The notes under the pieces were generated by a model. It saw only the letters and a program-made list of their open reading frames with translations. It ran no database searches and was not told the DNA's origin. The position numbers were made by a program, and so were the translations under genes. This document shows positions 10,857 to 55,595 of a stretch of DNA of 64,000 bases, piece after piece; the first letter of the stretch is position 1, and the number at the start of each line of letters is the position of its first letter. Source of the DNA: Clytia hemisphaerica (Eukaryota); contig NW_027103286.1 of the NCBI RefSeq assembly GCF_902728285.1, forward strand, positions 3,228,497 to 3,292,496. The letters run 5' to 3'.

Positions 10857-12478
10857 TACCGTGAGTGGTCCTAAATTAAATTCGACAGCCCTGCCTAAAT
10901 CCGATAGGGTCTTTCAGGCGTACCCAATCGATGAAATCGATACCACAAGTGTTACGCGTAAGCCAAATCGCGTATTACGAACAACCTCTAAATTGCCGAG
11001 TACAGGAGAAAAAAAATCGAAATTCAAAATGGCGGCCAAGGCCACGATGATAACTATCAAAAATCTTTGTTTTTCATTCAGCTATTGCAGCTCAATAAAT
11101 CAATGAAATAATTTGAAATAAAAAGTAAACAAACCTTGAACCTTTCATGAATCCAAATAAATAAAAGTATTCATCTAAAGTGAAGATTACATTTCAAAAT
11201 AAAACGATTTCCAAACCAACCTAAAGTAAGTCTCTGCCAACATAAAACTTCTCTGCGGGGTCACTGACAAGGAGTTACGACTTCAGACTTTAGATTCCAA
11301 TTCTTGTATAGGCTGCAACTACACTGCCAAATGATATGTCTTACAAAGACTTCCAATTGGGTCCCATAAGTTAAGAAAATGACATTATCTTATAGCACGG
11401 GGGTTCTGTTTTTAAAAACAAACTTCAAAATAAAATTGTTAATGAGCTTGTTACTTAACATATCACTTACTTACATAATTAATTTATGATATAACACCCC
11501 TTTCTTAAATAAATGGCCTCTTAAAGTCTTTTATGTTTGCCGCAAGAAGGAAGAAAAATTTTATTTGACCCCCGGTTTTTTCTCTCGTTTTCTAGCCATT
11601 TCGCGCGTGTTAGTGTAGACACAACTTTAATCCGGGGAAATGAAGCGTTTTCATTGGTCTAAAATTACAGATGGTCACGTGACCAGAGTTTTTATCCAGG
11701 GAAATGCCGTGGCCGCAATGTTTTGCTTTAGTGAGATTGACCATTTTGTTGTTTAGATTTGAGCGGGCGAAATTTCTGTACAAATCAAAATATGGCTTCG
11801 TTGGAATACCGGTTGAAACACTTGTGATACGGGAAATCAATCGATATTAATCGATCTTAATCGATAACAATCGAATTCAATCGATGGCTAAATCAATAAT
11901 AATCGAATTTAATCAATGAAAATCGATACCAATCGATAATAAAATTTTACGTTCCTATCGATTGGCCATGGATTAGTAATCGATCGATCATTGAGTACGA
12001 ACGACTTTTAGCGATTGACATCGATTAAATCGACAATCGATGTTATCGATTGGGTACGCCTGGAAACTAAAATAAAAACAAACCTTTCGCTGGCGCTGTG
12101 ACGCAACGAAGATACCAAAGTGTCAACTAAACTCAGAGATTTGATACATTGAACCAAATGAACCAAACAGAATTAACAATGATTGCTTCTTATAAAAAAC
12201 ATAATTTTTTATTGCAATATATATGTACAACGTCATAAATGACAGCAGTAACAGCATCATATAAAGTAATTATTATTTACAATTCACACTTTTTAAATTA
12301 CATTGATTGGCATCTTGACATTATAGCCATCTTGTTAGATGTTTCGTTTCGAGAGTTCTTGCAATAGTTTATCATTCAACTTGGAGAGGGAATGTTTGTA
12401 AACATAGAATTTTTTTCATAGCAGTTATTTGGGGGTCGTAATTAGGCAGGGCTGTCAGATTTAGGACCACTCACGGTA
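10857..12478. mobile_element. Non-autonomous TIR element of about 1.6 kb. TIRs are about 50 bp (TACCGTGAGTGGTCCTAAAT…GACAGCCCTGCCTAA.T.CGA…GGGTC). It encloses an AATCGAT-type satellite.
   Basis: The left end at 10857-10912 is the inverted complement of 12432-12478. A small related copy of 375 bp lies at 38277-38650. The internal ORF 10861-11106 is not credible. Confidence 0.55.
11820..12050. repeat. Satellite with a unit of about 11 bp (AATCGATnnnn) inside the 10857-12478 element.
   Basis: More than 15 tandem AATCGAT cores. Related AATCGAACG and TTCGATTACG arrays lie at 42590-43010 and 13780-13850. Confidence 0.7.
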
Positions 12479-15009: not shown

Positions 15010-15932
15010 TTTCTGTCACGGAAGGAAATCAGAGCCTTTTTTGGCCTATTTTTGAAAAATGGTAAACTTAATGAAAATAGTATTAGTCCTGAATTAAACC
15101 CTTCATAGTATTAATACTTCCAAACCAAAATAAATTTCATAAAAGTTTTTCCTCGTTGAATGATTGAACTTTGAAGGTTCTGTCACGGAAGGAACGCAGC
15201 AAAGACATTAAAAAAGACAAAAGTATGCTGATTCAGATTCCTGTGAATTTAAAGAGAATTTTAAAACCAAAATACCACCAGAAGAAACTTATGTCTATCT
15301 GCTTGTCATTGAAAAAAGAACTGAGTCAAAAAAATTAATTTCAATGGCTACAGGCCTTTGCAACTGAGAAAGGTCAGTGTCACGGAAGGACACCTGTACT
15401 GGAGACTTAGTTAAGCTTATTCTGAGCTCCATACAGGGTTGATCTGGTTCCCAATGGTTCTAAACCTCCTAGGACACTCATCCTGCAATAAATTAGACCC
15501 ATTGAAGTCCAAGATTTCTAAAAATAACAAGATATTTTTAATCCGTCACGGAAGGACAAGGTGAAAGTGTCATGGAAGGACAATAATTTCAGACCTTGTA
15601 AGTGAATATGAAGGAGGTTGCTTTGGAATGTAATTTCATTTTTTGTTAGGGGGTACCAATAGTTAGAACTTGCAATAATATCAAGAATAGTGTACTTGCA
15701 CAAAACTGGTGAAAAAACTTTTTGTCTTGAAATTGTCACGGAAGGAATTCGATATTTGAAAAAATTTTCTGCTTGCAGTACTTTTTTGTTGTTTGACTTA
15801 TTTCAAAATGAACAAACCTATTAAACTAACTAAGGTATGTACTTGTTTTAAAACAACTTCATTTTTGATTAATCATTTTATTTTTCAAAAGAAAGTCCAT
15901 TATATTTTAACACTTGTCCTTCCGTGACAAAC
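15010..15932. mobile_element. Putative about 0.9 kb TIR element defined by TGTCACGGAAGGA at the left and its inverse TCCTTCCGTGACA at the right. Five further direct copies of the 12-mer lie inside.
   Basis: The motif GTCACGGAAGGA(A/C) occurs at 15016, 15182, 15378, 15546, 15573 (GTCATGGAAGGA) and 15736, and as a reverse complement at 15918. The ORF 15518-15739 is spurious. Confidence 0.35.
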
Positions 15933-16101
15933 CTCACTAGTTGTGTTTTGATATAATCACCTGATTACAGAGACTAAAAGTGCGACTCGGTTGATTTAAA
16001 AGTTGAAATTGGAAAATTTAAAAAAAAAATCAGTTACTTATTTTGTTTGTAAGATTTTTGATTTTGTGTTTTGGTTGACCACTTTTCAATTTGGCCCTTT
16101 T

Positions 16102-16724
16102 GGACCTACCCCGGTGGAGGTCCTATAAATTAACCTTTGTCCGTTCGTCCGTTCGTCTGTTCGTTATTAGCTTTCCTCATGATTGGCTCATTAGTTTTTT
16201 CTGATTTTTTGCACAAAGATTCATAACTATAAACCCTCGAATGTGACGGAGCCCGATTTTCAAAAAAAAAAAATTTTGGGCAAATTTGGGTCAAAAAACG
16301 GCTAAAAAACGGGTTTTTTGGACTTTGTGAAAAATTAGGTCGTTAATTTTTTCTGATTTTTTGCATGAAAGTAGGGTACCATCGTAGGTAAAAGATGGTT
16401 CAAGCAGATTTATGCAAAAAAATTTTGTTGGCTCAAAAAACGCATGTTTATCTATAAGAATCACTATTAATAAGCATACATCAATGTTCTTAGTCAAATT
16501 AATCAATTTTTTGATGAGATATGTTTTTTTTGCTCTCGAAGTCTTGAATATGAAAGAATATTTCAAGAGCATGAAATTTTGGTTTCTAAACGTGTTTTTT
16601 TATAAGAAATAAACAACTAATTTTAATAGATCGTCACTATTTGTGTTCTGAATGATTGTTTAATGGTCACGCTTTTATGTAGATATCAATTATATATGTG
16701 TTAAATGCATAACCAGGTAGGTCC
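16102..16724 (+). mobile_element. Non-autonomous TIR element of the GGACCTACC family. The TIR is GGACCTACC(TGG) … CCAGGTAGGTCC, with a subterminal (CCGTTCGT)n microsatellite. A tandem duplicate of its 3' 180 bp extends to about 17015.
   Basis: Both termini are visible. The body is nearly identical to 48077-49080. It recurs at 23461-25036, 27586-28053 (inverted), 4250-4620 (partial) and 1-43 (truncated by the window edge). Confidence 0.65.
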
Positions 16725-19700
16725 ATAAAAGTATCACTTGTTTTCATTAAATTTTCACCATCATAGCTCAATCTTTTGATAACAACTTTTCAGCTAAAAA
16801 ATGCTGGAGATGCGTTGGAAAAGCTGGTTTTCTTAAGATTTTACCATTATAATATTCTGATTTTTGGTTTCTAAACATGTTTTTTTATAAGAAACAAACG
16901 ACAAATTTTAATATATCGTCACTATTTGTGTTCTGAATGATTGTTTAATGGTCACGCTCACATAAATATAAATTATTATATAATTATGTGTTTAATGCAA
17001 ACCAGATAGGTCCATAGAAGTATTGCTTGTTAAAATATGGAGTGTATATAGGGGGATGCAATGTAAGGGGGCTCAGACCCCCTCTGCACACTGTTTAATT
17101 CATAAATGTATCACTTGTCTTTCCTAGAAGTCACCCTCTTGATCGACTCCCTCTATGATGCTTGGATACTACCGGATGGGTCGGTAGTACTAACATAATT
17201 TAAAGTCCAAATATCTTAGAAATGGTTAAGGATGTAACTAAAATTTTTTAACCAGGTATTATATAGACACTTTAGACTATTATTCTCTATAAGTTTTAAT
17301 AAGCAAAGTTAATTAAAAAATAAATCACAGTAGTGATTTTATTGAATGCCCCTAATTTTGAAATGTTGCAAAATTGACGTCGAAATTACGTATTTAAAAG
17401 TAGCTTACGTAATGCTACAGCTTTTTTATTAGTTTATAGTTTTAGTATATAGTTTTATATTTATTAGTATTTTTGTTACCCTTGCTTTGTCATTTTGTAT
17501 ATCCAGTGCTTTTACAACTTCATGAGTTTCATATTTGTTTCGGATAGTCACTAAAGGGTTCAGGTTTTCTGCTTTAATTATTTCAATGTAATGTTCAATG
17601 TTCTGTAGATTAACTATAAAAGTATCAATTGTTCTTTTTTTAAGCAAACGATCTAATTCTAAAAAAATTAAAATCACATGTATCTATGTTTTTCTGTCTC
17701 TTTAAAGATCAGCCATGTCCAGTTTGCTGGTCACTGCATTCGTGCATTCGTCTGCATTCTTCTGAGGGAAGCCTTTCCCTCTCTTTTTCTTATGAAGCCC
17801 AAGGGAGTTGCTCAAGAGAACATAGAATTATTTTTTAACTGCCACAGTGAACAGGACACTGCGCTTGAAACCATGAAAAACCATGGTAAACCATGGTAAC
17901 TGTCATTTTTGATACCAAATGATCGAATCCACCAACCCGACTAGAGTTATAAGGTTCCTTTCTGAGGAATAGTCTCTTTGGTTTTTGGGAGCTTTACCAA
18001 AGAAAAGTTATAGAACTTGTTGTTTTCAAATTAAGTCTGTTTTCCATTGATTTTCAGACCTTACAACGAATTACACAGCTATGTCTGCACATAAGGGGTA
18101 GTAATATTTGATTTTTAATAATAAGAAGGGGTAAACTGATCAAAGGGAAATTAAAGGCTATTAAGCTATTAAATTGAGCCATTTGATTTCGAAAGCTTGA
18201 AATGTTGATATATTTGTTGTGCGCTTTTTAACCTTTTAGTCCACTGCATCCTATTGGAGCTTTATTTATTTACATGTGGATGATGATATGGAGCTCACAA
18301 AATACTCCTGACTAATGGTCTGTGCCCAAAGAAACAGGGCCCAATTCACTCAAGAAGTTGAGACCATCCTTTTAACAAGCATTTGGAAAGCTTACGATTG
18401 GTTTTTAGGAGCTACACTATTTCAAAGCTTTAAAAAATAAAGAAATTTCTTTTCATCTCTTCGTGGCTTTTTCTTAATTATTTAATTTCCTTGTAACTAT
18501 TAAAAGTGTGTATATTACTATTGACGAGGTGACGTCAAATTTAACCTTGCTTTTGGTAAATCCAAATATTCTTTCTCCATCTGCCACACTTCATCGCTTC
18601 CCATTTATTTTCAATGTTTACTTTTAGGAAGAGGGACTAGTTTATAGAATAGATCGGAGGAAGGGATAGGACCAGCCCCTTCCCCTTAACACTTCCCTAT
18701 TTTCTTCTTCGGTCGTTGAATAGAAGATTTCGAAAGGAGACCCTCCTTCTTTTAAACGTGATATAAATTATTCATACATCTGACGATCTTTTTCGATTGA
18801 TTGAAAGGATATTGGGAAGAACCAAAGTTTTTTTTTTAGCTCTGTTCACTTCTGTGGGTGCATGGGAGTTTTTCAACACAAATTTGCTGACGATTCCTGC
18901 TCACGTCATCTTACATGCTTTTTTAGGTTTCTTGTATTTTTATATGTTTGTCCATACAGTTTACGCTCTCTGATTCCATTTTCAAGGGGAATCGGATTTT
19001 GATTAAGAGAATTATCGAATAGTAGAGCGTCGTTTATAAGTGTTTCTTGTTGAAGGTGGTTTTCAGTATGGAGTGTATCGAATAATAGAACGTCGAATTA
19101 GAGAGCGTCAGCTGTATTGTAATGACCAGTGGCTTGAAATCTTCACGCTAGATTTTGAATCAATGTGAATGACAATATTTTCTGTGATAATCTCGGATAA
19201 TCTAAAAAGTATTACTCGTTGAAATATTTTAATGAGGTGATGCAGAGGCTGCTTTTTGTGGTATTTATTTTTCTAGATCACAAACAAGGCCTGACCTGGT
19301 AAGCAAATATCATCTATGATTGATGCCTATAGGAATTTATTATTATACAGTTCTAGTTAGAGCAAAGAAAACAAAACCTGAATTTTCAAAGTTTCATCAG
19401 AGCTCTCAGGGAATATCTTTTCAATCTTGTTTAGTAAGATAGAAGTCTTACTTCTCTCTCAGAAGCCTCTCTATGGTCACATCCTAATCCTCTCGTCAAA
19501 ACGGAGGAACACAATCTCAAATTTTGCTATCAGAGAAAGAGGAGGTCAGGGTCACAATAGAGAGAGCATGTTACGTATTTTCCCTCCCTCCACCGTACTG
19601 TTATTTGATTGATCACCTTTTATCACCATGCTACATCAAGAGGCTTTGAGGGGGAGAACTCGTCTCTCTACCCTTTTGTGTGAAGACCTTCTTTCTTGCT

Positions 19701-22016: not shown

Positions 22017-22850
22017 ATGAAAGAAATGACGCTGCCAACGATGCATAATTTGAACACGTCAGAATCTAACATTGTTGTTTGGAGAAAATGTACGCCTTTC
22101 TGTGATAAAACTGTCGAATGTCCTGAACATCATGAACTCTTACAAGCAATTGTAAATTGTACAGACCAATTAGGTCACTTATCGAACTTAGATGGCTTGA
22201 AAGCCTGTATAGAGAAATATCAGAGTATGGGTTGGGATCGGAATGATACCATCCCAGACCCTGTTGCTTCGAACAGGTTACCGTTGATCCACTGGGCAGC
22301 TTCTCTCGGTAAATGTAATGCTCTTGAGTGGATGCTAAGCAACGGATTCGATTCCACCGTTACGATAGGAAGTTTAACAGAAAACGCTTTGCACAGAACT
22401 ATATTATACCTTTATAAATCAAGGCCTAAATTTACAACGAAAGAACTGAAACCGAAATTCCGTAAAATATGTAATTTATTATCAAACTTAATGTATCATT
22501 CGGACTTAGGGAATGGAACTCCGTTACATTTAGCCGCTAGTTTGTTATGTAGCTCAGAGACCAGGCTAGTTTTCTTTCAAACAGCAATTGAAGTTATGGC
22601 CGCTCAGGCTAAGGAAATGAACGATTCGGATAGAATGGCGACTTTAGACGCTAAAAATAACGAAGGAAATACTTGTTTGCATATACTTGCTGGTGCTAAT
22701 GAGAAAATCAAAGTTGATCACGTTTGTACCGCCATTTCCGCCCTACTTCAATCGGGCGCTGATAAGACGATGAGAAATGCAAAGGATCAAACACCCTTGG
22801 ATATTGCCATTCAAAAAGGTTACAATAACGTCATCGATGAACTGGTCAAG
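22017..22850 (+). CDS. Ankyrin-repeat protein, exon 1 (278 codons from the ATG). It carries at least four ankyrin repeats: LPLIHWAASLGKCNALEWMLSNGFD, GNGTPLHLAASL…, NNEGNTCLHILAG…, DQTPLDIAIQKGYNNVIDELVK.
   Basis: Long ORF with ankyrin consensus blocks (TPLH.AA..G……LL..GAD). Donor GTCAAG|gtattg at 22850/22851. An acceptor-like cttttcgtttcag lies just upstream of the ATG, which suggests a 5'UTR intron. Confidence 0.8.
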
Positions 22851-23072
22851 GTATTGTTTGATAACTTTGAAATTTACTTTATCTGACATGTTCAACTCTT
22901 CGAATTGGCCGAATCCTGGACATAAATTGGTAACCTGAAACAATTAAAGTACTCCCCCTTATTGCATTATGGAATATACCTAAAAGAATTCTCCAATCTT
23001 TTCTAAAAATTATTAAGTCCAAAATTTTACGTTGACTTTTACTATGTTCTGATTTTCTTTTCTGTTTTTCAG

Positions 23073-23369
23073 ATAGTGAACCCATCAACGTCCTTGGTCA
23101 AAGAATCGCCTTCTTCGTCTACATCTCATCACGATTCACGCTCCCTCATGACCATGGTCGATATGCGAAGAGGTAGCCCGGTCTCCAACTCCATGATCAA
23201 TCTCAATCGCTCGGCATACGGTTACACGGAACGCAGGCGTTCACGCAGTCGTTCGCCCATTCGGTCACCGCGCTCTGAACGTGAACGCGAATCACCGCCA
23301 ATGGCCCACTCGAAGTATGAAGACTCAGCGAGGAACGGATTTCTCATTAAACAAGAGGACGAAAACGAA
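23073..23369 (+). CDS. Ankyrin-repeat protein, exon 2. It is S-rich and RS-rich (…ERRRSRSRSPIRSPRSERERESPPMAHSKYEDSARNGFLIKQEDENE), phase 0/0.
   Basis: Acceptor tctgtttttcag|ATAGTG at 23071-72. The frame is continuous with exon 1. Donor AACGAA|gtaggt at 23369/70. Confidence 0.7.
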
Positions 23370-23460
23370 GTAGGTTTCCTTAATTTTAAAGGCAGAAACC
23401 TTAGCGATTTTTTAGTTTTGGCTGCGAAAGTTTCTAACAAGCTAAGTAAAAATTCTTTTT

Positions 23461-25036
23461 GGACCTACCTAAGGTAGTCCTTTAAATTAACCCTTGTCCG
23501 TTCGTTCGTCCGTTCGTTCGTTCGTCTGTTGCCAGCTTTTCTCGGGATCGGCTCATTAGTTTTTTCTAATTTTTTGCACAATGATGCAAAATGGCAATGC
23601 CCAAAATGTGACGGAGCCCGATTTTCGAAAAAAAAAATTTCCGGCCGAAAATGGCGGAAATATGCCGGAAAAACTGGTTTTTCGGCATTTTCTCGAGATT
23701 TCATCATTAGTTTTTTCTGATTTTTTGCTCAAAGATGCGTATTAACAATGCCCAAAACATGGTCTAGTCCGATTTTTGAGAAAAAATTTTTTCCGGCCGA
23801 AAATGCCGGAAATATGCCGGAAATCGCCGTTTTTCTGGATTTTCATTGGACTTTTCCATATAATTGGTTGTTTTTTCATTCAAAAAGATTATCAATAGCA
23901 ATTCCCACCATCAAGCATGTTTCAATTTTCAATAAAATTGATTTTTGAAGCCGGAACTTTCTAAAAATCGCCGGAACAGCCGATTTTCGCCGGAAAAACG
24001 GTATTTCTTGAATTTCTTGAGCTGTACTTTATATTTTTTCATGAAATTTTGCACATTGATGCAAAATGTCAATGCCTAAATTGTGACGGAGCCTGATTTT
24101 CGAAAAAATTCATTTCCGGCCGAAAATGCCGGAAATATGCCGGAAAAACTGGTTTTTTGGCATTTTCTCGAGATTTCATCATTAGTTTTTTCTGATTTTT
24201 TGCTCAAATATGCGTATTAACAATGCCCAAAACATGGCCGAGTCCGATTTTTAAGAAAAATTTTTTTCCGGCGGAAAATGCCTGAAATATGCCGGAAATC
24301 GCCGTTTTTGCAGATTTTCATCGGACTTTTTCCTTATAATTGGTTGTTTTTTCATTCAAAAACATTATTAATAGCAATGTCCACCATCAAGCATGTTTCA
24401 ATTTTCAATAAAATTGATTTTTGAAGCCGGAGCTATTTAAAAATCGCCGGAACAACCTATTTTGCCGGAAAGACAGTATTTCTTGAATTTCTCGAGCTGT
24501 ACTTTATATTTTTTTATGAAATTTTGCACACTGATGCAATATGACAATACCTAAAATGTGACAGAGCCCGATTTTAGAAAAACATTTTTTTCTGGCCGAA
24601 AATGCCGGAAATATGCCGGAAAAGCCGGTTTTTTACATTTTCTCGAATTTTCATCAAAAGTTTTTTCTGATTTTTTGCAGAAAAATGCGTATTCCCAATG
24701 CTTAAAACATGGCTGAGTTTTTTTGATTTTTGAAAAAAATTTTTTTTTGGTTGAAAATGCCGGAAATCGCCGTTTTTGCAGATTTTCATTAGATTTTTTT
24801 CTTGTATTTCACTCAAAAACATTATTGATAACAACATCAAGCATGATTCAATTGTCAATAAAACTGATTTTTGCGACCAGAACTTTCTATTTATTTTTCC
24901 CCTACAACCCTTCCCTCTCCCCCATCAACAATCAATGATGAATTTATTGCGTTATGCATTTTCGCTAAACGATATACTTTTTGACTGATTTTTTTCTCCT
25001 CGCATTTCTATCCAACTTTCATCATCAGGTAGGTCC
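23461..25036 (+). mobile_element. GGACCTACC-family TIR element whose internal about 480 bp module is tandemly amplified about 3 times (23540-24900). It is inserted in intron 2 of the ankyrin-repeat gene.
   Basis: Left TIR GGACCTACC at 23461 and right CAGGTAGGTCC at 25026-36. The repeated units begin with …ttgcacaatgatgcaaaatggcaatgcccaaaatgtgacggagcccgattttcgaaaaaa…ccggaaatatgccggaaa…. Confidence 0.6.
23540..24900. repeat. Macrosatellite-like tandem array of about 3 units of 480-520 bp, derived from the GGACCTACC element's internal module.
   Basis: The units at about 23540, 24040 and 24520 share over 85% identity. Each carries the motif TTTCCGGCCGAAAATGCCGGAAATATGCCGGAAA twice. Confidence 0.7.
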
Positions 25037-29377: not shown

Positions 29378-29512
29378 CTATTTAGCAGGTTTGAAGATGG
29401 TGATTTCGGAAGAATCATAACCGGTGACACCGAAACTGTTGTCGATCGCATCCATGAAACGAACACCTGTCAATTGAACGTCTGTGATCGCTTTCTGAAA
29501 CTTCAGTTCGAA
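29378..29512 (-). CDS. WDR54: WDR54-like, terminal exon (FELKFQKAITDVQLTGVRFMDAIDNSFGVTGYDSSEITIFKPAK*).
   Basis: Acceptor ccatttag|TTCGAACTG. In-frame stop TAG at about 29378-80. The listed ORF 29209-29466 overlaps this frame but over-extends. Confidence 0.55.
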   Translation of the reverse strand, partial: FELKFQKAITDVQLTGVRFMDAIDNSFGVTGYDSSEITIFKPAK

Positions 29513-29749
29513 CTAAATGGAGAGAGAAAAGGTGAAAATCAAATCAAAGAAGCTTTTTTTTACTTAACCCTACTCAAACTAATTTGGTACTTTTACCCAA
29601 CTGTGCCTGTTCGATATTAATTCTTTCAACTGGAAAGGTTTTCTCTTAAAGTCAACTTGGCTGAATTACTTAGGACGTATCGAAGGGTTAAACATTCGCC
29701 TTGTAAGAGCTTAGACAAGGCGTAACTTAAGTCCAACAGTTTTACTTAC

Positions 29750-29800
29750 CGTCTCGACGTCGAAAAGTCTAAGGAAGGTGTCTTCTGAGGCTGTCACCAC
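29750..29800 (-). CDS. WDR54: WDR54-like, exon 6 (VVTASEDTFLRLFDVET), phase 0/0. The intron on its upstream side (29801-31482) contains the whole GPCR gene on the opposite strand.
   Basis: Acceptor aatttgttag|GTGGTG. Donor GAGACG|gtaagtaaaac. Exactly 51 nt. Confidence 0.55.
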
Positions 29801-30211
29801 CTAACAAATTGGAAAGAGAAAAATTTGTTAAATTCTCATATTTTCTTTTGAAGAACGAGCCTGAGCTGCATCATTTTTGTGAGGATTATTGAGCTGAGAT
29901 TTAAATTGCTGTTTTAATTGACCTTTTCATAAATTACGTCACGAACATCACTTGCCTCGTTTTGAAATTATTGCCATGGTGATTAACTCCCAGTGAGTTT
30001 TATTAAAACTACTTTCTTTTTATTTATTCTTCTACCTCATATCTTAAAGAATTAATAAAGAGATTCGACGGTTTGTTTGTTTGTTTTTATCGGTATAAAG
30101 TAATTAGACATGAGTTTGTAGATTTATAACGAGTTCTTAGAATGATTCATAACATCACGTTCTGAAATCAAAGATTATATATGGAGAGACAAGTGAAATA
30201 TCGAGAACATA

Positions 30212-31225
30212 ATGAACAAGTCGCTCAGAGGTAATTCAACGTCCAAGATAATTGATAATGAACTTGCTCCATGCTGGCAAAGCAAATCACTTAAATATTT
30301 AAACCTGAGCTTTGGGCTATACAGTACTTTGATAACCATATTTGGAATTCCAGGAAACCTTTTCATTTGTTTTGTGATAATAAAGGGACAACTTTTGAAG
30401 TCATATCATTTTGTGTTCATCTTATGGTTAGCAGTTTCAGACTTGGTGACGTGTCCATTCCAGCTCCCTCTGGACGCTACAGCTTATTACACATATGATT
30501 GGGAAGAATATTTCATTTCTCCTGTATGGATTGTTTTTGTCAACGCTTTTTGGTATTTTTGTTTTGGTTGGACGATATTCATCCTATTTTTCTTAACACT
30601 GAATCGATTTTATGCAGTGAAGTACCCTCTCCGTCATTTGAGAGTTACCAGAAGTTTGATTAATAAATCTATGTTCGTGGCATTCGCATTATCGGCTGCT
30701 ATTTTCATATTTGCTTTTTTTATTCAAGACTATCCAGAGCCTGGGTATTACGACTTCTTAATGCCAAATTGGGCTGAAGGATTGCTCCTTGCTTTCTTAC
30801 TGCTACCCCTTTTCGCAAGTATGTTGCTGTACGGCTTCATTTTCGAGACTGTTCGAAAGCGACGCAGAGACGCTCAAAGGGAGAGCTCACTCCGTGGGAG
30901 GGTGACAGAAAATCGAATGTACATCACAATGATGTTTTTGGTGATTATCACTTGGCTTCCCTTCAGTATCTATCAAATATATATGCTTTTCGATACCCAA
31001 ATATTTTTGACCTGCACAGGCGAATCTATAGACTCCTTCTTGGCAGCCCTGATTAACCTGAATATTGTTGGCAATGCTTTTATTTATGGATATTCAAATG
31101 CTGTCTTTAGAAAGTATTTTAGAAAGATACCATGCTGCAAGCGACAGAATGATAATGATTGTGCAGTTGAATTGAATAGAATCAGATCAAATCTTTCAAA
31201 TAACGTTACTGAATGTGCCCCGTAG
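30212..31225 (+). CDS. Intronless class-A (rhodopsin-like) orphan GPCR, 337 aa. It has seven hydrophobic segments. NRFYAV replaces DRY at the end of TM3. There is a W..P in TM6. NAFIYGY replaces NPxxY in TM7. The tail is Cys-rich, consistent with palmitoylation.
   Basis: Single uninterrupted ORF. Its TM spacing and GN…LAVSDL…NRF…W.P…N..IYGY landmarks are diagnostic of 7TM rhodopsin-family receptors. It lies inside an intron of the minus-strand WD40 gene. Confidence 0.8.
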   Translation: MNKSLRGNSTSKIIDNELAPCWQSKSLKYLNLSFGLYSTLITIFGIPGNLFICFVIIKGQLLKSYHFVFILWLAVSDLVTCPFQLPLDATAYYTYDWEEYFISPVWIVFVNAFWYFCFGWTIFILFFLTLNRFYAVKYPLRHLRVTRSLINKSMFVAFALSAAIFIFAFFIQDYPEPGYYDFLMPNWAEGLLLAFLLLPLFASMLLYGFIFETVRKRRRDAQRESSLRGRVTENRMYITMMFLVIITWLPFSIYQIYMLFDTQIFLTCTGESIDSFLAALINLNIVGNAFIYGYSNAVFRKYFRKIPCCKRQNDNDCAVELNRIRSNLSNNVTECAP

Positions 31226-31482
31226 AATATAATTTTTAAGATATCTAGAGTTATATAGTGTAGACATTATTTTTCAAAAAATCGGAGCACCATCTCAAGT
31301 TCTTCAATCATAATAAATTTAATGAAAAACAAATGATGCAGACAAGGCTATGTGTCAAACTAAATGAATCACCTACAAATCAGTGAGGAACTTTGTTTTT
31401 TTTATTGTTCCACTTGATCGTTCAATATATTATCGAGAAATCTTTGTTATAAATGTTTCAAAAGAAGAAGTAATTGTCTTAC

Positions 31483-31645
31483 CAGTGTTCCGTCTTGTGA
31501 AAGGTCCATGGCGTTAATCCATTTAGCGTGCGCTGCAACTTCAACGATTATTGTTCCCGTCTTGCAGTTAAACTTTCGAAGGTGTCCAGAACCGTACGCT
31601 GCTATTATGAAGTTCTCGTGCAGTCGAACGCTCGTGCATGGAAAT
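31483..31645 (-). CDS. WDR54: WDR54-like, exon 5 (-FPCTSVRLHENFIIAAYGSGHLRKFNCKTGTIIVEVAAHAKWINAMDLSQDGTL).
   Basis: Acceptor ttatttatgtctag|ATTTCC. Donor ACACTG|gtaagac. The phase is consistent with exon 4, entering in phase 2 and leaving in phase 0. Confidence 0.6.
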
Positions 31646-32250
31646 CTAGACATAAATAATGGGAACATCTTAGCTACCGTCAGTTAAAGGTTTTGTTTTG
31701 ATTGAAAAGTCTGATGACGCTGATGTAGTAAAAACAAGTGCGACAAGATTAGAAAAATGTTTTGAAAAGATGAAAATACATTGATTAAAAAAACATTCCT
31801 CAAACAAAGGGACTTTTACTGATACTCTTTCGAATGTTTTTGTGTTCATAATAAGTGGAACGTTTTCTATCTTATAATCAAAACGATCTTAACGTTACGT
31901 TACGATCGTAACGATCAAAACGAAAATTTGCTCGAAATCAACTTTGCTATTTTCTTGTTTACAAAAGCAATGGAATGTGAGGTCACATCTCGAAACAACT
32001 TTCGATCTTTCACTTGTTTGCAGGATATCGTTGCTTAAAAAAGTAGCTTTAATTTATCTGACTCAGCATGAAGACACTGCCTAAAATAAGCCCCTTTTAT
32101 TCCCGTAAGAAAACCTTTAACAACATAAAAAAAATCAGCCTTTCGTGTTCATGTGAACACAAATAAAATCACTGCTATACAATAGTATCCATTACTCAAG
32201 CCACTAGCTCAAAATTAAAAACACAGCAAAGCAACAAAACTAAAGCCTAC

Positions 32251-32458
32251 CCAAAACCTTCAATTTCGAGCGTTTTGGTGACTGCTCCACCAACTTTCCA
32301 CAAAATGATTTTGCCCATATCATCTGCTGAAACCATACAATCATCCAGTGCATGTAAATCTGTCAATGCACATGTGTGTGCATTGATAGTGTCGTGTAGT
32401 TTAACACCATTTCCTTTTGAGGGAATATCGAAGACATAAATACTCCCATCCGCAGTTC
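32251..32458 (-). CDS. WDR54: WDR54-like, exon 4 (GTADGSIYVFDIPSKGNGVKLHDTINAHTCALTDLHALDDCMVSADDMGKIILWKVGGAVTKTLEIEGF-G).
   Basis: Acceptor ttttattttag|GAACTGCGG. The donor is chosen as TTTGG|gtaggc, since the alternative GAAG|gt breaks the phase with the next exon. Classic WD repeat signature (…GSIYVFD, …ILWK). Confidence 0.6.
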
Positions 32459-32653
32459 CTAAAATAAAATGGAAGCTTGATAGACAGCATTCCACAGTTA
32501 GGGAGCAGGGTTCATAGACCTATTTCAGTTTCAAATTTCATTTAAATTACTCCGACCCAATTGGCAATCCGACAAAAAGATCGAATTTCAATTAGCAAAT
32601 TTGAGACCTTAGAAATCAATGAAAGTAAAATTCAATCAACAATTCCTCCTCAC

Positions 32654-32774
32654 CAATACATATTCGATTATCACCAGCTGCAGTAATTCCTCTGACGAAC
32701 TGTGGTTTCCCTTCTTTAGGATGTGGCTGTAAGGCTTGCCAGAAAATCATCATTGACCCATTCTCATCAAACAT
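32654..32774 (-). CDS. WDR54: WDR54-like, exon 3 (MFDENGSMMIFWQALQPHPKEGKPQFVRGITAAGDNRICI-G).
   Basis: Acceptor ttttctttag|ATGTTTG. Donor TATTG|gtgaggagg. Phase-1 exit. Confidence 0.6.
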
Positions 32775-33003
32775 CTAAAGAAAATGAGGCTACGTTATAT
32801 ATCAACTAATAGGGGAACAGAGGAAAAATATCAATACCAAATACCATTTTATTACTAAATTAAGATTTTTCCCTTGATATTCCAGCTGTCTAAGATAGCC
32901 AATATAGTTTATAACATTGCCCTCAATGTTAGAAAGATAATCAAAAAGGTATCTAATGAACACAGAGACATAGGAGGATGTGAAATGGACAAAGGGAAAG
33001 TAC

Positions 33004-33066
33004 CTGTGCACCTTTGACTGAACCAACAACAAGAAGAGTCCTCTGTGGTAAAACACACCATTTGGC
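33004..33066 (-). CDS. WDR54: WDR54-like, exon 2 (AKWCVLPQRTLLVVGSVKGAQ), phase 0/0.
   Basis: Acceptor tttttttttcag|GCCAAATGG. Donor GCACAG|gtacttt. Exactly 63 nt. Confidence 0.6.
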
Positions 33067-33189
33067 CTGAAAAAAAAATGGGACGTCGAACTTTTAAAAG
33101 ATCTTATAATATGATCATAAGTCCATCTAAGACATTCTGTATCTATCAATTAAAGCATGATTTTTATATCATTTGTGTAATTTGCTGAC

Positions 33190-33405
33190 CTGCATGATGG
33201 TGGAGCTTGTTTGTGTGCCTTCTCCTTTACAAACAACCCTTCTGTATGCAGCTTGGTTGGTCTGTATTTCTTCTGCATCAAACACCCAAACGTTGGATTT
33301 GTGAACAACTGCATACTGAAGACCAGATGCAGATGAAAGGACATCTAGATTATTGTACAGCAGTGAAGCACTGGACTTTATTGACACTGCACTTTGATTG
33401 TACAT
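33190..33405 (-). CDS. WDR54: WD40-repeat protein (WDR54-like), exon 1 (MYNQSAVSIKSSASLLYNNLDVLSSASGLQYAVVHKSNVWVFDAEEIQTNQAAYRRVVCKGEGTQTSSTIMQ).
   Basis: ATG in a good context (aaaATGt). Exactly 72 codons, then donor ATGCAG|gtcagc at about 33189. The family assignment rests on overall similarity to WDR54 across all exons, recalled from memory and not searched. Confidence 0.55.
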
Positions 33406-33997
33406 TTTTATTTTATGATCTACTACGTTTATTTTTTATTTCACCTGATAAACAAAATGAATGTGAAAATGGAAGAAAGTTATTAATTATTCTTAGTTAT
33501 TCAAACCTTTTTCAAATTGTTCAACAGTTTTGATAAATCTGTTATGCCAAACAAATACACAGCCCAAGAAAAACCTTAATAATAACAAAAAAGTGAAAAA
33601 TGTCGACAAAATGACAAAACGTCTCTTTTCTTTTACTGAATATATTGTTCTACTAAATTATAATACATTAAATAAAAATGAAGCTTCATATTAGAAACAC
33701 TATATCAATAGGCCTTCAAGACAATTTTATACAAGGAAACTTTTTAGAGGAATTGATCTGAGATTATCTGCTGCAGGAACAACACCATGTAACAATAAAA
33801 GTTCAGAAAAATATGCTCTTGTAAAGAAATCGAATTTTTGTTCAATTATTAAAAAAGGCACCCTTTGCTGTTTGCTGAGCAAGTTAAATACCTCTTTGTC
33901 TTAGACCTTATATTACCTCATTCGACTCAAAAAAATTAAACAATAAATACACAGAGAGAAATAAGCTATGAGTGAGAATGAAAAATATGTTTAAAAA

Positions 33998-34762
33998 TTA
34001 ACTCTCAATGTCAACATTTGCTGCAGAGGCAACATTAGAAACTTTCTGCACAATTCCAGATTGTAATAAAGAGACAGGTAGCATTGTAGCTCCACTCACA
34101 GCAGTCTTTTGTGGAGGAACAATAACTTGAAAACCTTGACTAGAAGCCATAATTGGAACACCTATAGCACCAGTGTTTCCAGCAGGGGCAATCGCAACAG
34201 GATTGCTCTGTCTGATTATAGTGTTCATGGGCGAATTGGATGTGAGAGCACTTAAGGATGAGGCATCAAGCCGAATTTTTTTGGTCATTTGTGTTGTGTT
34301 CATAGGTGTAGCTCCACGAATAGTCATCGTCTGATAAGGGCCTTTTTGTCCAATCTGACGTGGTGTTGTGGCAACTTTTATCTGTGGTCTCAACCCAACA
34401 ATGGTTGCATTTGTTACATTTGATGAGTTCAATGTCTGAATAGTTTGAAAATTGGTCCCAAGAGTTGAATTGATTTTCACAGAAGATGCACCTGCATTTG
34501 ATCCTTGAAGAAGAGCTTTCTGTCTCAGCACTAACTTTTGTTGCGCCGAAGCTTTGGAACGTACTTTGGTGCTGATTTTTTCTACTTCTGATCCAAACTG
34601 TTTGACAGCGGAGTGCAGCATATCAATTTCTTCATCACCCCATTTGCTATCTGTAGACCCCTTTTCTGCTCCGGGTTGCAAAGACATTGCCAGGTTACCC
34701 AGTTTGGTGAAAGATTCGCCAGCAGTCGTAAAGATTTCTGCAACTTTTCCAGCCTGTGCCAT
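33998..34762 (-). CDS. BAP18: BAP18-like (chromatin complexes subunit BAP18, C17orf49 family) SANT-domain protein, 254 aa, apparently intronless.
   Basis: The N-terminus MAQAGKVAEIFTTAGESFTKLGNLAMSLQP…SKWGDEEIDMLHSAVKQFGSEVEKISTKVRSKASAQQKLVLRQK matches the BAP18 pattern (KVGEIFSAAGAAFTKLGEL…KWTETEIEMLRAAVKRFG…). This is established family knowledge recalled from memory. The rest is a low-complexity S/T/N-rich tail. Confidence 0.7.
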   Translation of the reverse strand: MAQAGKVAEIFTTAGESFTKLGNLAMSLQPGAEKGSTDSKWGDEEIDMLHSAVKQFGSEVEKISTKVRSKASAQQKLVLRQKALLQGSNAGASSVKINSTLGTNFQTIQTLNSSNVTNATIVGLRPQIKVATTPRQIGQKGPYQTMTIRGATPMNTTQMTKKIRLDASSLSALTSNSPMNTIIRQSNPVAIAPAGNTGAIGVPIMASSQGFQVIVPPQKTAVSGATMLPVSLLQSGIVQKVSNVASAANVDIES

Positions 34763-53700: not shown

Positions 53701-54639
53701 TTGATTCAAGTACAGTATTTCAAAATGGATCAGGTTGGTTAGCGGGTGGAGAGTCAAGAGTCAAGAGTTTTATGACTTTCCCTTCTCTTGAAAATCCAAT
53801 GTTCCAAAACTTTCAACTAAAAAAATGCAAAAAAATCGTCTTTCGTCTTTTTTTATTATCTTATAAACACTTTTTTCAGAACCACAAGTGAAAAGAAAAG
53901 CAAAACTGACTGATTATGCTGCCAAAAAAGTGATTGACAGGTCTAGAAAATGATTGACAGGCCCGGGTTAGATATTTCCGTGAGCAATCTCGTTATATTT
54001 ATCAAAAAGTAATATACTTGTGGAAAGCCCAATTATTCTACTTTTTCGAATGCTGTGTCATGGAATTTTTTTAACAATTAAATAGAACGGGGTTTCCTCT
54101 GACGTAAACAAACCTCGAGTCCTATCCTGAAAATTGACATTGAGCGTAGAAAAAAAGACAAATGAAAGTATTTTCCTTTTTAATTCATATTTCCAATAAT
54201 TAAAGACTAACTTGAAAACACCAAGAGTGAAATGTAGCGAAATGCTTAGAACTCCTTGCGACTTAGAATTTTTTTTCAAAACTGAAAATTTGACCCCGGC
54301 TCGAACTACCAAAGTCTCTTGTCAATGATTCTGAGTCCGGCACGCTAGCAATGTACTATCGAGCCGATACAAAAACGTATACAAAATTGGTCAATTTAAA
54401 AATCCTTATAAAAACACTACTGCATATACGGGTGAACTGACCTCATGGGCTAGGCTAACTGTTTAGATCAATTACATACTCCAGGCTCCGTAAGGTTCCT
54501 TATTATAATTGAAAAAGCGTATACTAACAAACGATACGGAACTCGTGAGAGTGTTTTTAAACCGTTGTCTTTGTTTATCTTCACAAGATTTTGTTTATCT
54601 TTGCGACTTAGTTCTCGTTTTCGGCCTTTCGTCTACTCG

Positions 54640-54880
54640 TTTTCAGCCTATCACCTTCGATTTCAGCCTCCCGACTCCCGCCTCCCAGCTTTCGTTTTCA
54701 GCCTCCCGCCTCCCACTTTCAATTTCAGCCTCCCGCCTCCCACTTTCGTTTTCGGCCTCCCGCCTCCCACTTTCAATTTCAGCCTCCCGCCTCCCACTTT
54801 CGTTTTCAGCCTCCCGCCTCCCGTCTCCCACTTTCGATTTCAGCCTCCCGCCTCCCGGCTCCCGGTTCAGCCTCCCGAAA
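54640..54880. repeat. Minisatellite of about 30 bp, 8 units (TCAGCCTCCCGCCTCCCACTTTCGATTT).
   Basis: Tandem copies with small variations. All three ORFs across it (54509-54922, 54565-54891, 54643-54831) are repeat artefacts. Confidence 0.8.
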
Positions 54881-55595
54881 TTTCGGATTAGGTCTAAACC
54901 ACCATCATTAGAAGAACGTTAATTTAGACGTACAAAGCTATCGAAAGCAGAAACTTTCGTAAAGTCAAAAATACGCAGGTTGCAAAGTAAAAAGTCTGAA
55001 AACAAATCACGCTTTTACTCGAAATCTTTATGTGTTTGTTACATGACATTTATTTCTGATTGATTCGAATTTATTGACACTAATTAAAGTTATCAGCTGT
55101 AAGTTGTAAAGCAAGTAACATGGGGGGGGGGGTTCAAGGGGCACTGAATACCGAAATACCGGCAATATTTTCCCGAATTTCCATCAACTGAATTGTTGAT
55201 GAAATGAGGAGTAAGGGATACACTGTTTATCAGACGAACGATCTAATTTCCAAGTGCAAATAGCATAGAAGATAAAGTTTAATTACTGACAAAGTGCAAC
55301 CATGCTTTCTGTCGACCGAAGAAAATTTTGATTTCAACACTTTCTTATTTGGCTAAAAGCATTATGTTTTAGAATGGTTTTACTATTGTAACTAAGTACC
55401 TCAAAAAGCTCTTTTTATGGATAATTCTTTAGTTCTAATTTGAGAATTAGGCAGTACCTATCCCATCACCTTCCTTTGAGAAAAGGGCAATAACATGGTT
55501 GCTTGGCCAAGATTAGGGAGTCAAATCAAAAAAACATTTAAACAAAATAATGCGAGCGAAGAGAGCGCGAAAAATTTGTGCTAATTTACAGGTCC

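What the first reader, a model, noticed from the sequence alone, without database searches (positions are those of the whole stretch)
30212..31225. Orphan rhodopsin-like receptor with non-canonical signalling motifs (NRF for DRY, NAFIYGY for NPxxY, no TM7 proline)
The 7TM topology is clear. The two most conserved activation microswitches are substituted: D becomes N in E/DRY, and P becomes A in NPxxY. W..P in TM6 and the TM3 Cys are retained. This combination is rare and is seen in some constitutively odd or lineage-specific orphan receptors. The receptor may signal atypically or be a lineage-expanded chemoreceptor.
Basis: seen in the sequence. Interest (0 to 1): 0.5.

Follow-up and report, generated by a model that had tools for sequence, protein, structure and literature searches.

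The report
Orphan jellyfish GPCR with melatonin-receptor-like motifs
This is an intact, intron-less rhodopsin-type receptor gene of the jellyfish Clytia hemisphaerica from a small uncharacterised receptor subfamily; its unusual motifs are real but have well-known functional precedents, so it is an ordinary orphan receptor rather than evidence of exotic signalling.

Summary
The ORF at 30212..31225 (+, 337 aa) is real and is a full-length class A GPCR (Pfam 7tm_1 E=2e-21; AlphaFold pLDDT 81). NRF sits at the DRY position and NAFIY at the NPxxY position, and W6.48/P6.50 are present.

The window is Clytia hemisphaerica, because a neighbouring ORF is identical to XP_066920092.1. The gene belongs to a core subfamily of 14 sequences (query plus 13 relatives). 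All members covering those regions lack P7.50 and C3.25 and share an N-terminal Cys plus an ECL3 Cys. Every relative covering TM3 except the fragment P0014 (Ser) has D/E at 3.49, so only the D-to-N change (GAT to AAT) is specific to this gene.

NR[Y/F] plus NAxxY is the textbook signature of Gi-coupled melatonin receptors, but similarity ranking shows convergence, not membership. The functional Clytia MIH receptor has SRY.

The most likely reading is a canonical G-protein-coupled orphan receptor, possibly with altered basal activity. It lies antisense inside an intron of WDR54 and is absent from a published Clytia transcriptome GPCR list, so a silent or decaying copy remains a rival. Interest is low to moderate.

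The parts
30212..31225 (+). Intron-less coding sequence (337 codons plus stop) of an orphan class A GPCR of Clytia hemisphaerica
   Evidence: ORF listing; Pfam 7tm_1 full length, E=2.2e-21; AlphaFold 7TM plus H8 model, pLDDT 81. The start is supported because most relatives begin at an aligned M-N-x-[S/T].
30602..30610 (+). Codons AAT CGA TTT = N131 R132 F133, the D/ERY position (3.49-3.51). N is private to this gene, one nucleotide away from GAT (Asp).
   Evidence: Sequence; alignment to SSTR DRY and MT1 N124-R-Y. Twelve of the 13 relatives covering this column have D or E at 3.49 (P0014 has S), with R, or K in P0006, at 3.50 and F or L at 3.51.
31073..31087 (+). Codons for N288 A289 F290 I291 Y292, the NPxxY position with Ala at 7.50. 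This is a family-wide trait.
   Evidence: Sequence; alignment to NPILY of SSTR and NAIIY of MT1. All 13 core sequences covering TM7 lack Pro at 7.50.
30950..30961 (+). Codons for T247 W248 L249 P250, the CWxP position. W6.48 and P6.50 are retained; C6.47 is replaced by T.
   Evidence: W248 and P250 are invariant in the family alignment.
30272..30274 (+). Codon for C21 in the extracellular N-terminus, invariant in the family. Inferred disulfide partner of C268.
   Evidence: Invariant column in alignment A1. Together with C268 it is one of only two extracellular cysteines in the protein (sequence). The disulfide itself is inferred, not shown.
31013..31015 (+). Codon for C268 at the ECL3/TM7 boundary, in the conserved motif T-C-x-G-[E/D]-x-x-[D/E]. 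Invariant in the family.
30725..30766 (+). ECL2 (residues 172-185, QDYPEPGYYDFLMP), with no Cys but a strongly conserved family motif Q-x-x-P-x-x-G-x-Y-D-[F/Y]-x-x-P
   Evidence: Region-wise conservation: ECL2 top-residue frequency is 0.57, equal to TM3 and above TM7 (0.54). Q172, P175, Y180 and P185 are at least 92% conserved.
29801..31482 (-). Host intron (1,682 bp) of the WDR54 gene on the opposite strand. The whole GPCR ORF lies inside it.
   Evidence: The donor ...ACACTG|GTAAGA has its last exon base at 31483. The acceptor TTGTTAG|GTGGTG has its first exon base at 29800. The junction is phase 0. The flanking exons match successive parts of Pfam WDR54.
31483..31668 (-). WDR54 exon upstream of the host intron (its 5' boundary was not determined)
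   Evidence: Pfam WDR54 profile positions 213-263 of 334, E=2.6e-8.
29750..29800 (-). WDR54 exon of 17 codons (VVTASEDTFLRLFDVET) downstream of the host intron, followed by a further exon within 29381..29512
   Evidence: Together the two exons match WDR54 profile positions 268-331 of 334, E=8e-8, 32.2 bits against a 26.6 cut-off.

Best explanation
The ORF is a functional, single-exon gene for an orphan class A (rhodopsin-type) GPCR of the hydrozoan jellyfish Clytia hemisphaerica. It belongs to a small, uncharacterised subfamily with at least three Clytia paralogues plus relatives from unnamed environmental assemblies. Members of this subfamily lack the canonical TM3-ECL2 disulfide and the TM7 proline. 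They carry instead an invariant N-terminal Cys and an invariant ECL3/TM7 Cys, inferred to form a disulfide tying the N-terminus to TM7, together with a conserved ECL2 motif.

The rest of the activation machinery is intact: N1.50, D2.50, R3.50, P5.50, Y5.58, W6.48, P6.50, N7.45, N7.49, Y7.53, helix 8 and a CC palmitoylation site. The receptor most likely binds an extracellular agonist and activates a heterotrimeric G protein in the ordinary way. The agonist is not a biogenic amine, because 3.32 is Trp, and not retinal, because 7.43 is Asn. A peptide is the best guess.

The gene-specific D3.49N change removes the intrahelical D3.49-R3.50 salt bridge that stabilises the resting state. By analogy with melatonin receptors (natural NRY) and with D/E3.49 mutants, this is expected to shift basal activity, agonist sensitivity or expression, not to abolish or re-route signalling.

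Shown: the ORF, the fold class, the motif positions, the family pattern, the species and the nesting in WDR54. Inferred: expression, the disulfide, G-protein coupling, the ligand class and the effect of N3.49.
For: The ORF is intact and twice as long as any ORF in shuffled sequence. Pfam 7tm_1 matches at full length. The 7TM plus H8 model is confident, and its best PDB neighbours are generic class A receptors at TM-score 0.64-0.72. The start codon and the N-glycosylation sequon are conserved with relatives. All core microswitch residues except 3.49 and 7.50 are present.

The query departs from only 4 of 41 highly conserved family columns, 2 of them non-conservatively, which is within the family range of 0-12. 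The family-wide pattern of C21, C268, no C3.25 and no P7.50 holds in all core sequences that cover those columns.

The species is identified by 100% identity of a neighbouring ORF to Clytia XP_066920092.1. Paralogues XP_066933269.1 (55% identity, DRF) and XP_066933286.1 (ERF) are in the same genome.

There are functional precedents. MT1 and MT2 carry N3.49 and A7.50 and couple to Gi (PMC3645733 and PMC8786939). The Clytia MIH receptor carries S-R-Y and is functional (PMC7053711).
Against: There is no direct evidence of expression. Four query-specific peptides are absent from the 536 transcriptome-derived Clytia GPCRs of PMC7053711, while the paralogue is present. The exact protein is not in the 15-billion-protein collection, although the neighbouring gene's product is. 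The query evolves somewhat faster than its sister paralogue (35:13 unique changes with the nearest outgroup, p=0.0015). D3.49N abolishes function in some receptors, including CXCR1, AT1A, V1a and CB2 (PMC4372616).
Confidence: 0.62

Rival explanations
1. It is a silent or recently inactivated duplicate (an incipient pseudogene) that happens to sit in a WDR54 intron. The D3.49N change and the faster evolution reflect relaxed constraint, not function.
For: The gene is absent from the transcriptome-derived list of 536 Clytia GPCRs, while its paralogue is present. The exact protein is absent from the large protein collection. Relative-rate tests show an excess of query-specific changes against four of the five closest outgroups (35:13, 37:21, 29:14, 30:15; p=0.0015-0.04; 30:20, not significant, against P0003). 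D3.49N gives dead receptors in CXCR1 and several others (PMC4372616). Only 411 bp and 257 bp of intron flank the ORF, which leaves little room for its own regulatory DNA.
Against: A 337-codon ORF is intact in 35% GC DNA, where shuffled sequence never exceeds 169 codons. All invariant family residues are retained, and the number of departures at conserved columns is ordinary. The relative-rate excess vanishes with more distant outgroups and is not corrected for multiple tests. Low-abundance receptors restricted to a few cell types are often missing from bulk transcriptomes. Nested antisense genes are often missed by annotation pipelines.
Confidence: 0.2
2. It is one member of a lineage-expanded chemosensory receptor family, detecting environmental chemicals rather than an endogenous signal.
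For: The gene is intron-less, the family is known so far only from Clytia and unnamed assemblies, and paralogues are only about 30% identical. Two members and a fragment lie in tandem within 7 kb on an unnamed 1.1 Mb contig. There is a weak sub-threshold Pfam hit to the nematode Srx chemoreceptor family (19.5 bits against a cut-off of 23.8).
Against: The family is small: 13 representatives at 50% identity among 1.84 billion proteins. There is a single copy in the 64 kb window. ECL2 and the top of TM7 are among the most conserved parts of the family, whereas chemoreceptor families usually vary most there. The Srx hit is below threshold and covers only TM1-4.
Confidence: 0.1
3. It is a cnidarian melatonin-type receptor, and NRF plus NAFIY are inherited from the melatonin receptor lineage.
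For: It has the same two hallmark substitutions as MT1/MT2/GPR50. Cnidarians do have that lineage: Nematostella XP_001629585.1 has NRY and NAFIY and scores 106-109 bits against MT1 and GPR50.
Against: MT1 scores 26 bits with the query, against 50 bits for SSTR4. It scores 84.6 bits with the family profile, against 122-132 bits for aminergic receptors. Seen from MT1, the family ranks 101st-147th of 148 class A sequences. Seen from the Nematostella MT-like receptor, it ranks 52nd-141st of 146. Twelve of the 13 relatives covering TM3 have D or E at 3.49, so N3.49 is derived here. The family lacks the C3.25-ECL2 disulfide and C6.47 that MT receptors keep.
Confidence: 0.03

Closest known systems
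Clytia hemisphaerica XP_066933269.1 (labelled 'histamine H2 receptor-like'; transcripts TCONS_00002397 and TCONS_00040078) and XP_066933286.1
   Same: Same genome and same subfamily. XP_066933269.1 is 55% identical and XP_066933286.1 about 30%. All are intron-less-sized proteins of 330-350 aa with the N-terminal Cys, the ECL3 Cys, no C3.25, W at 3.32, NAxxY, the same ECL2 motif and the same M-N-x-[S/T] start.
   Different: The paralogues keep an acidic 3.49 (DRF, ERF), whereas the window gene has NRF. They lie on a different contig (2.27 Mb against 3.97 Mb). The 'histamine H2' label is only a best-hit name. The family has Trp, not Asp, at 3.32. None has a known ligand. The paralogue was listed among the 536 Clytia GPCRs but was not among the 16 receptors cloned in PMC7053711.
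Melatonin receptors MT1, MT2 and GPR50 (vertebrate), and the melatonin-like Nematostella XP_001629585.1
   Same: Asn at 3.49 (NRY or NRF) and Ala at 7.50 (NAxxY), with N7.49, Y7.53, R3.50, W6.48 and P6.50 all kept. This shows that a class A receptor with exactly this pair of substitutions can be a normal agonist-activated, Gi-coupled receptor (PMC8786939).
   Different: They are not closely related. Similarity scores put this family among the most distant class A sequences from MT receptors. MT receptors keep C3.25 and CWxP. Here N3.49 is private to one gene, while A7.50 is family-wide, so the resemblance is convergent.
Clytia MIH receptor (MF459558), the only deorphanised Clytia GPCR (PMC7053711)
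   Same: Same species, class A, and a non-acidic residue at 3.49 (S-R-Y) in a receptor proven functional by ligand assay and knockout.
   Different: It is a different family: 99.6 bits with the family profile, and no hit with the query alone. It keeps C3.25, an ECL2 Cys and NPxxY, and it lacks W6.48.
Class A receptors with non-canonical extracellular disulfides (from general knowledge, not tested here): chemokine and angiotensin receptors have an extra N-terminus-to-ECL3/TM7 disulfide; melanocortin, S1P/LPA and cannabinoid receptors lack the TM3-ECL2 disulfide
   Same: A Cys pair is positioned to link the N-terminus to the top of TM7, and the TM3-ECL2 pair is absent.
   Different: In this family the N-terminus-TM7 pair would be the only extracellular disulfide. 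No sequence relationship to those receptor groups stands out.

Membership tests
Class A (rhodopsin-like) GPCR, Pfam PF00001 7tm_1 | Full-length match to the family profile above the curated threshold | tested here: met
   77 bits against a 30.5 cut-off, profile 1-260/260, E=2.2e-21; 218 PDB class A chains at E<1e-3.
Class A (rhodopsin-like) GPCR, Pfam PF00001 7tm_1 | Seven-helix bundle plus helix 8 | tested here: met
   AlphaFold model with pLDDT 81.1 and pTM 0.79. Foldseek best hits are all class A receptors, TM-score 0.64-0.72.
Class A (rhodopsin-like) GPCR, Pfam PF00001 7tm_1 | Signature residues N1.50, D2.50, R3.50, P5.50, Y5.58, W6.48, P6.50, N7.49, Y7.53 | tested here: met
   All are present: N49, D77, R132, P199, Y207, W248, P250, N288, Y292.
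Class A (rhodopsin-like) GPCR, Pfam PF00001 7tm_1 | Acidic 3.49, Pro 7.50 and the C3.25-ECL2 disulfide (typical but not obligatory features) | tested here: not met
   N131, A289, I107 (or P104 in the HMMER alignment), and no Cys in ECL2. Known class A receptors lack each of these, so membership stands.
Melatonin receptor family (MT1/MT2/GPR50) | NRY in place of DRY and NAxxY in place of NPxxY | tested here: met
   NRF and NAFIY align residue for residue with MT1 N124-R-Y and N291-A292-I-I-Y.
Melatonin receptor family (MT1/MT2/GPR50) | Closer in sequence to melatonin receptors than to other class A groups | tested here: not met
   The query scores 26 bits against MT1, against 50 for SSTR4. The family profile scores 84.6 bits against MT1, against 122-132 for aminergic receptors. 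The family ranks 101st-147th of 148 from MT1.
Melatonin receptor family (MT1/MT2/GPR50) | The motifs are ancestral to the group | tested here: not met
   Twelve of the 13 relatives covering TM3 have D or E at 3.49 (P0014 has S); only the query has N.
Melatonin receptor family (MT1/MT2/GPR50) | Melatonin binding | not testable with these tools
   Requires a radioligand or signalling assay.
Biogenic amine receptors (the paralogues are labelled 'histamine H2 receptor-like') | Asp at 3.32 as the amine counter-ion | tested here: not met
   W114 at 3.32. The core family has W in 9 of 13 members covering that column, otherwise Y, N or F.
Opsins | Lys at 7.43 for the retinal Schiff base | tested here: not met
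   N282 at 7.43.
Clytia MIH receptor / cnidarian PRXamide receptor family | Specific sequence similarity to MIHR | tested here: not met
   99.6 bits with the family profile, below generic aminergic hits, and no hit with the query alone.
Nematode Srx-type chemoreceptors (Pfam PF10328) | Match above the curated threshold | tested here: not met
   19.5 bits against a 23.8 cut-off, covering only half the profile.
Unnamed Clytia-containing subfamily (query plus P0001-P0013) | N-terminal Cys plus ECL3 Cys, no C3.25, aromatic 3.32, no P7.50, and the ECL2 motif Q-x-x-P...Y-D-[F/Y]-x-x-P | tested here: met
   All features are present in the query. C21 and C268 are invariant in alignment A1. E-values to family members run from 2e-101 to 7e-20, then fall to the generic class A level.

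The most novel reading that the evidence does not exclude
The subfamily could be a structurally distinct branch of class A receptors. A single N-terminus-to-TM7 disulfide together with a conserved ECL2 'lid' would replace the canonical TM3-ECL2 staple, and TM7 would work without its proline. Within this branch, the window gene would be a neofunctionalised paralogue whose N3.49 makes it constitutively or hyper-sensitively active, with its expression tied to its host gene WDR54 by antisense nesting.
Probability: 0.1. Interest if true: 0.45.

Novelty: new member of a known kind. Interest (0 to 1): 0.22.

Why it matters
Cnidarian genomes encode hundreds to more than a thousand class A GPCRs, and almost all are orphans (PMC11087051). 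In Clytia only the MIH receptor has a known ligand. This gene adds one possibly unannotated member to a small Clytia subfamily with an unusual extracellular cysteine architecture. It also gives a natural D3.49/N3.49 paralogue pair in one genome, which could serve as a ready-made experiment on what the acidic DRY residue does. Beyond that it changes nothing fundamental.

Tried and rejected
1. The word-indexed homology search with the protein found nothing. With the family alignment it recovered only P0011 and distant class A proteins. That index evidently lacks most family members, so its silence is not evidence.
2. Exact look-ups of the query, of Clytia paralogues P0151 and P0004, and of neighbour P0161 in the contig index failed. 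I therefore could not see the RefSeq gene calls at this locus, nor test whether the paralogues are also nested in introns.
With the protein it gave 23 pattern matches, none confirmed.
5. Model coordinates are not exposed, so the C21-C268 distance and the geometry around N131 and R132 could not be measured.
6. Retroposition: no flanking target-site duplication or poly(A) tract. AATAAA lies 87 nt after the stop, but the motif occurs at chance frequency in this AT-rich window. All family members seen in DNA are single-exon, so being intron-less is ancestral.
7. Melatonin-receptor membership, aminergic, opsin, MIHR-family and Srx readings were each tested and rejected (see the membership table).
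8. Rfam and tRNA scans of the window found nothing.
9. dN/dS was not attempted. The closest available relative is 55% identical, so synonymous sites would be saturated, and its DNA could not be fetched.
Full report
**1. What is there**

The window has an ATG-to-stop ORF at exactly 30212..31225 on the + strand, encoding 337 aa. The window is eukaryotic-looking DNA of about 35% GC with sparse ORFs. In 30 shuffles of the window the longest ATG ORF averaged 111 aa and never exceeded 169 aa, so the ORF is far beyond chance.

Pfam 7tm_1 matches from profile position 1 to 260 of 260 (E=2.2e-21, 77 bits against a cut-off of 30.5). An AlphaFold model built on the family alignment is confident (pLDDT 81.1, pTM 0.79). 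It shows seven TM helices and helix 8 at residues 297-308. Its PDB neighbours are generic class A receptors (mu and delta opioid, beta-1 adrenergic, A2A, CCK1) at TM-score 0.64-0.72 and 17-23% identity, with no specific nearest neighbour.

Read directly from the sequence, the N-terminus has three N-glycosylation sequons and a CC pair follows helix 8. Both are typical of class A receptors.

**2.

Mostly yes. HMMER alignments to somatostatin receptors place LTLNRFYAV under LSVDRYVAV, and GNAFIYGY under ANPILYGF. I checked the numbering against human MT1. Its published positions are N124 = 3.49, C250-P253 = 6.47-6.50 and A292 = 7.50 (PMC3645733). The query's N131, W248/P250 and A289 align to those residues.

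One claim fails. The 'retained TM3 Cys' is C116, which is at 3.34 and is shared only with the closest paralogue. Position 3.25 is not Cys, and ECL2 (QDYPEPGYYDFLMP) has no Cys, so the canonical TM3-ECL2 disulfide is absent.

The classical ionic-lock acceptor is also absent, because 6.30 is R230. What N131 removes is the intrahelical 3.49-3.50 salt bridge.

**3. Species and relatives**

A neighbouring 254-aa ORF (33998..34762, minus strand) is identical to Clytia hemisphaerica XP_066920092.1, so the window is Clytia genome.

An exhaustive HMMER search of 1.84 billion cluster representatives gave 882 hits at E<1e-3. After 13 sequences the scores fall sharply: 2e-101 for the best, then 2e-58 down to 7e-20. 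The best hit (55% identity) and the fourth (32% in that search) are Clytia proteins XP_066933269.1 and XP_066933286.1, both auto-named 'histamine H2 receptor-like'. They lie on another contig, so they are paralogues. The remaining hits come from unnamed ENA, JGI and Logan assemblies.

One such 1.1 Mb contig carries two members and a fragment in tandem within 7 kb. The 64 kb window has only this one copy.

**4. The two substitutions have different histories**

In the 13-sequence alignment, all 12 relatives have D or E at 3.49, with R, or K in P0006, at 3.50 and F or L at 3.51. Only the query has N, encoded by AAT, one step from GAT. Among further core sequences, the TM1-TM3 fragment P0014 has S at 3.49.

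By contrast, none of the 13 aligned sequences, nor the C-terminal fragment P0013, has Pro at 7.50; they have A, V, F or G. The family also shares:
- an invariant N-terminal Cys (C21) and an invariant Cys at the ECL3/TM7 boundary (C268, in the motif T-C-x-G-[E/D]-x-x-[D/E]);
- no C3.25;
- an aromatic residue, mostly Trp, at 3.32;
- N7.45 in all but one member, and invariant N7.49;
- an ECL2 motif Q-x-x-P-x-x-G-x-Y-D-[F/Y]-x-x-P.

ECL2 is as conserved as TM3 and slightly more than TM7 (top-residue frequency 0.57, 0.57 and 0.54, against 0.43-0.50 for the other helices). C21 and C268 are the only extracellular cysteines. A disulfide tying the N-terminus to TM7 is the natural inference, but it is not shown.

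From hit P0015 outward the sequences are ordinary class A. C3.25 is present in 84 of 138 and P7.50 in 115 of 138. N3.49 is present in 13 of 138, so N3.49 is not very rare in this sequence neighbourhood.

**5.

[quoted passage not shown] Those receptors are conventional Gi-coupled receptors whose R3.50 and Y7.53 are needed for signalling (PMC8786939). I therefore tested membership directly.

- MT1 scores 26 bits with the query, against 50 for SSTR4.
- MT1 scores 84.6 bits with the family profile, against 122-132 for aminergic receptors.
- Nematostella XP_001629585.1 has NRY and NAFIY and is truly melatonin-like, at 106-109 bits to MT1 and GPR50.
- From that protein the core family ranks 52nd-141st of 146 class A sequences, and from MT1 it ranks 101st-147th of 148.

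The resemblance is convergent.

Within Clytia itself, the deorphanised MIH receptor reads S-R-Y at 3.49-3.51, yet it is functional by ligand assay and knockout. Two other cloned oocyte GPCRs lack P7.50, with NCVIY and NIFIF (PMC7053711). The MIH receptor is not a family member: it scores 99.6 bits with the profile and gives no hit with the query alone.

The family is not aminergic, because 3.32 is Trp, and it is not an opsin, because 7.43 is Asn.

**6. Is the gene alive?**

For:
- The ORF is intact.
- The start (M-N-x-[S/T]) is conserved with most relatives.
- All invariant residues are retained.
- The query departs from only 4 of 41 highly conserved columns, 2 non-conservatively, against a range of 0-12 for other members.

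Against:
- Four query-specific peptides are absent from the 536 transcriptome-derived Clytia GPCRs of PMC7053711, whereas the paralogue appears there as TCONS_00040078.
- The exact protein is not in the 15-billion-sequence collection.
- Tajima relative-rate tests show more query-specific than paralogue-specific changes with four of the five closest outgroups (35:13, p=0.0015; three others at p=0.02-0.04). There is no signal with P0003 or the distant outgroups, and the tests are uncorrected for multiplicity.

Mutating D3.49 to N has receptor-dependent effects. It gives dead receptors in CXCR1, AT1A, V1a, muscarinic and CB2, while other substitutions at 3.49 (D138V in CXCR2, D142V in KSHV-GPCR) give constitutive activity (PMC4372616). 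Sequence alone therefore cannot decide the consequence here.

**7. Genomic setting**

The ORF lies antisense inside a 1,682-bp intron (29801..31482) of WDR54.
- The exon ending at 31483 matches Pfam WDR54 positions 213-263.
- The exons at 29750..29800 and within 29381..29512 match positions 268-331 of 334 (E=8e-8).
- The splice sites are canonical and the junction is in phase.

The ORF fills 60% of the intron, leaving 411 bp upstream and 257 bp downstream. There is no sign of retroposition. The AATAAA 87 nt after the stop is uninformative in this AT-rich DNA.

**8. Verdict**

This is a real, correctly located class A GPCR gene of Clytia, and a new, possibly unannotated member of a small orphan subfamily.

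- the missing TM7 proline is an old family trait;
- the D-to-N change is a private single-base change;
- the combination has a well-known functional precedent;
- nothing points to atypical signalling or to a chemoreceptor expansion.

The most likely mechanism is ordinary agonist-driven G-protein activation with a possibly shifted basal state (confidence about 0.6). A silent or decaying nested copy is the main rival (about 0.2).

Interest is low to moderate. The subfamily's disulfide architecture and the natural D/N paralogue pair are the only features worth a follow-up.

Noticed in passing
window 29381..33435, minus strand: A multi-exon WDR54 gene (Pfam WDR54, E=1.3e-44 for the concatenated exons) hosts the GPCR ORF antisense in its 1,682-bp intron at 29801..31482. 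Nested antisense genes like this are easily missed by annotation.
   Followed up: yes
window 33998..34762, minus strand: A 254-aa single-exon ORF identical to Clytia hemisphaerica XP_066920092.1 ('uncharacterized protein'), with no Pfam domain. This identified the species of the window.
   Followed up: partly
window 22017..22886 (+) and 23076..23477 (+): A 289-aa ORF with ankyrin repeats (Ank_2, E=5.6e-10) is followed by a Ser/Arg-rich 133-aa ORF, possibly exons of one gene. The exact 289-aa sequence is not in the protein collection.
   Followed up: no
window 23572..24718: A tandem repeat with a 475-bp unit, 2.4 copies and 90% matches, just downstream of the ankyrin ORFs. Its nature is unknown.
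   Followed up: no
window 54509..54922 (+): This 137-aa 'ORF' is merely the translation of a 27-bp (or 54-bp) tandem repeat at 54675..54877, giving SASRLPLSF repeats. It is an artefact, not a gene.
   Followed up: partly
L001 10001..11008, 12268..12381 (minus strand) and 15864..16892: On an unnamed 1.1 Mb eukaryotic contig from ENA assembly ERZ25072490, two full members of the same GPCR subfamily and a fragment lie in tandem within 7 kb. The family therefore does form local clusters elsewhere.
   Followed up: partly
literature: supplements of PMC7053711: The functional Clytia MIH receptor (MF459558) has S-R-Y instead of DRY and lacks W6.48. Oocyte GPCR1 and GPCR7 lack P7.50. Nematostella XP_001629585.1 carries both melatonin-receptor hallmarks (NRY and NAFIY) and is truly melatonin-receptor-like at 106-109 bits.
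   Followed up: partly
window 29858..29876 and 31331..31349: A 19-nt inverted repeat, 84% complementary, brackets the GPCR ORF inside the host intron. It is probably chance in AT-rich DNA.
   Followed up: no
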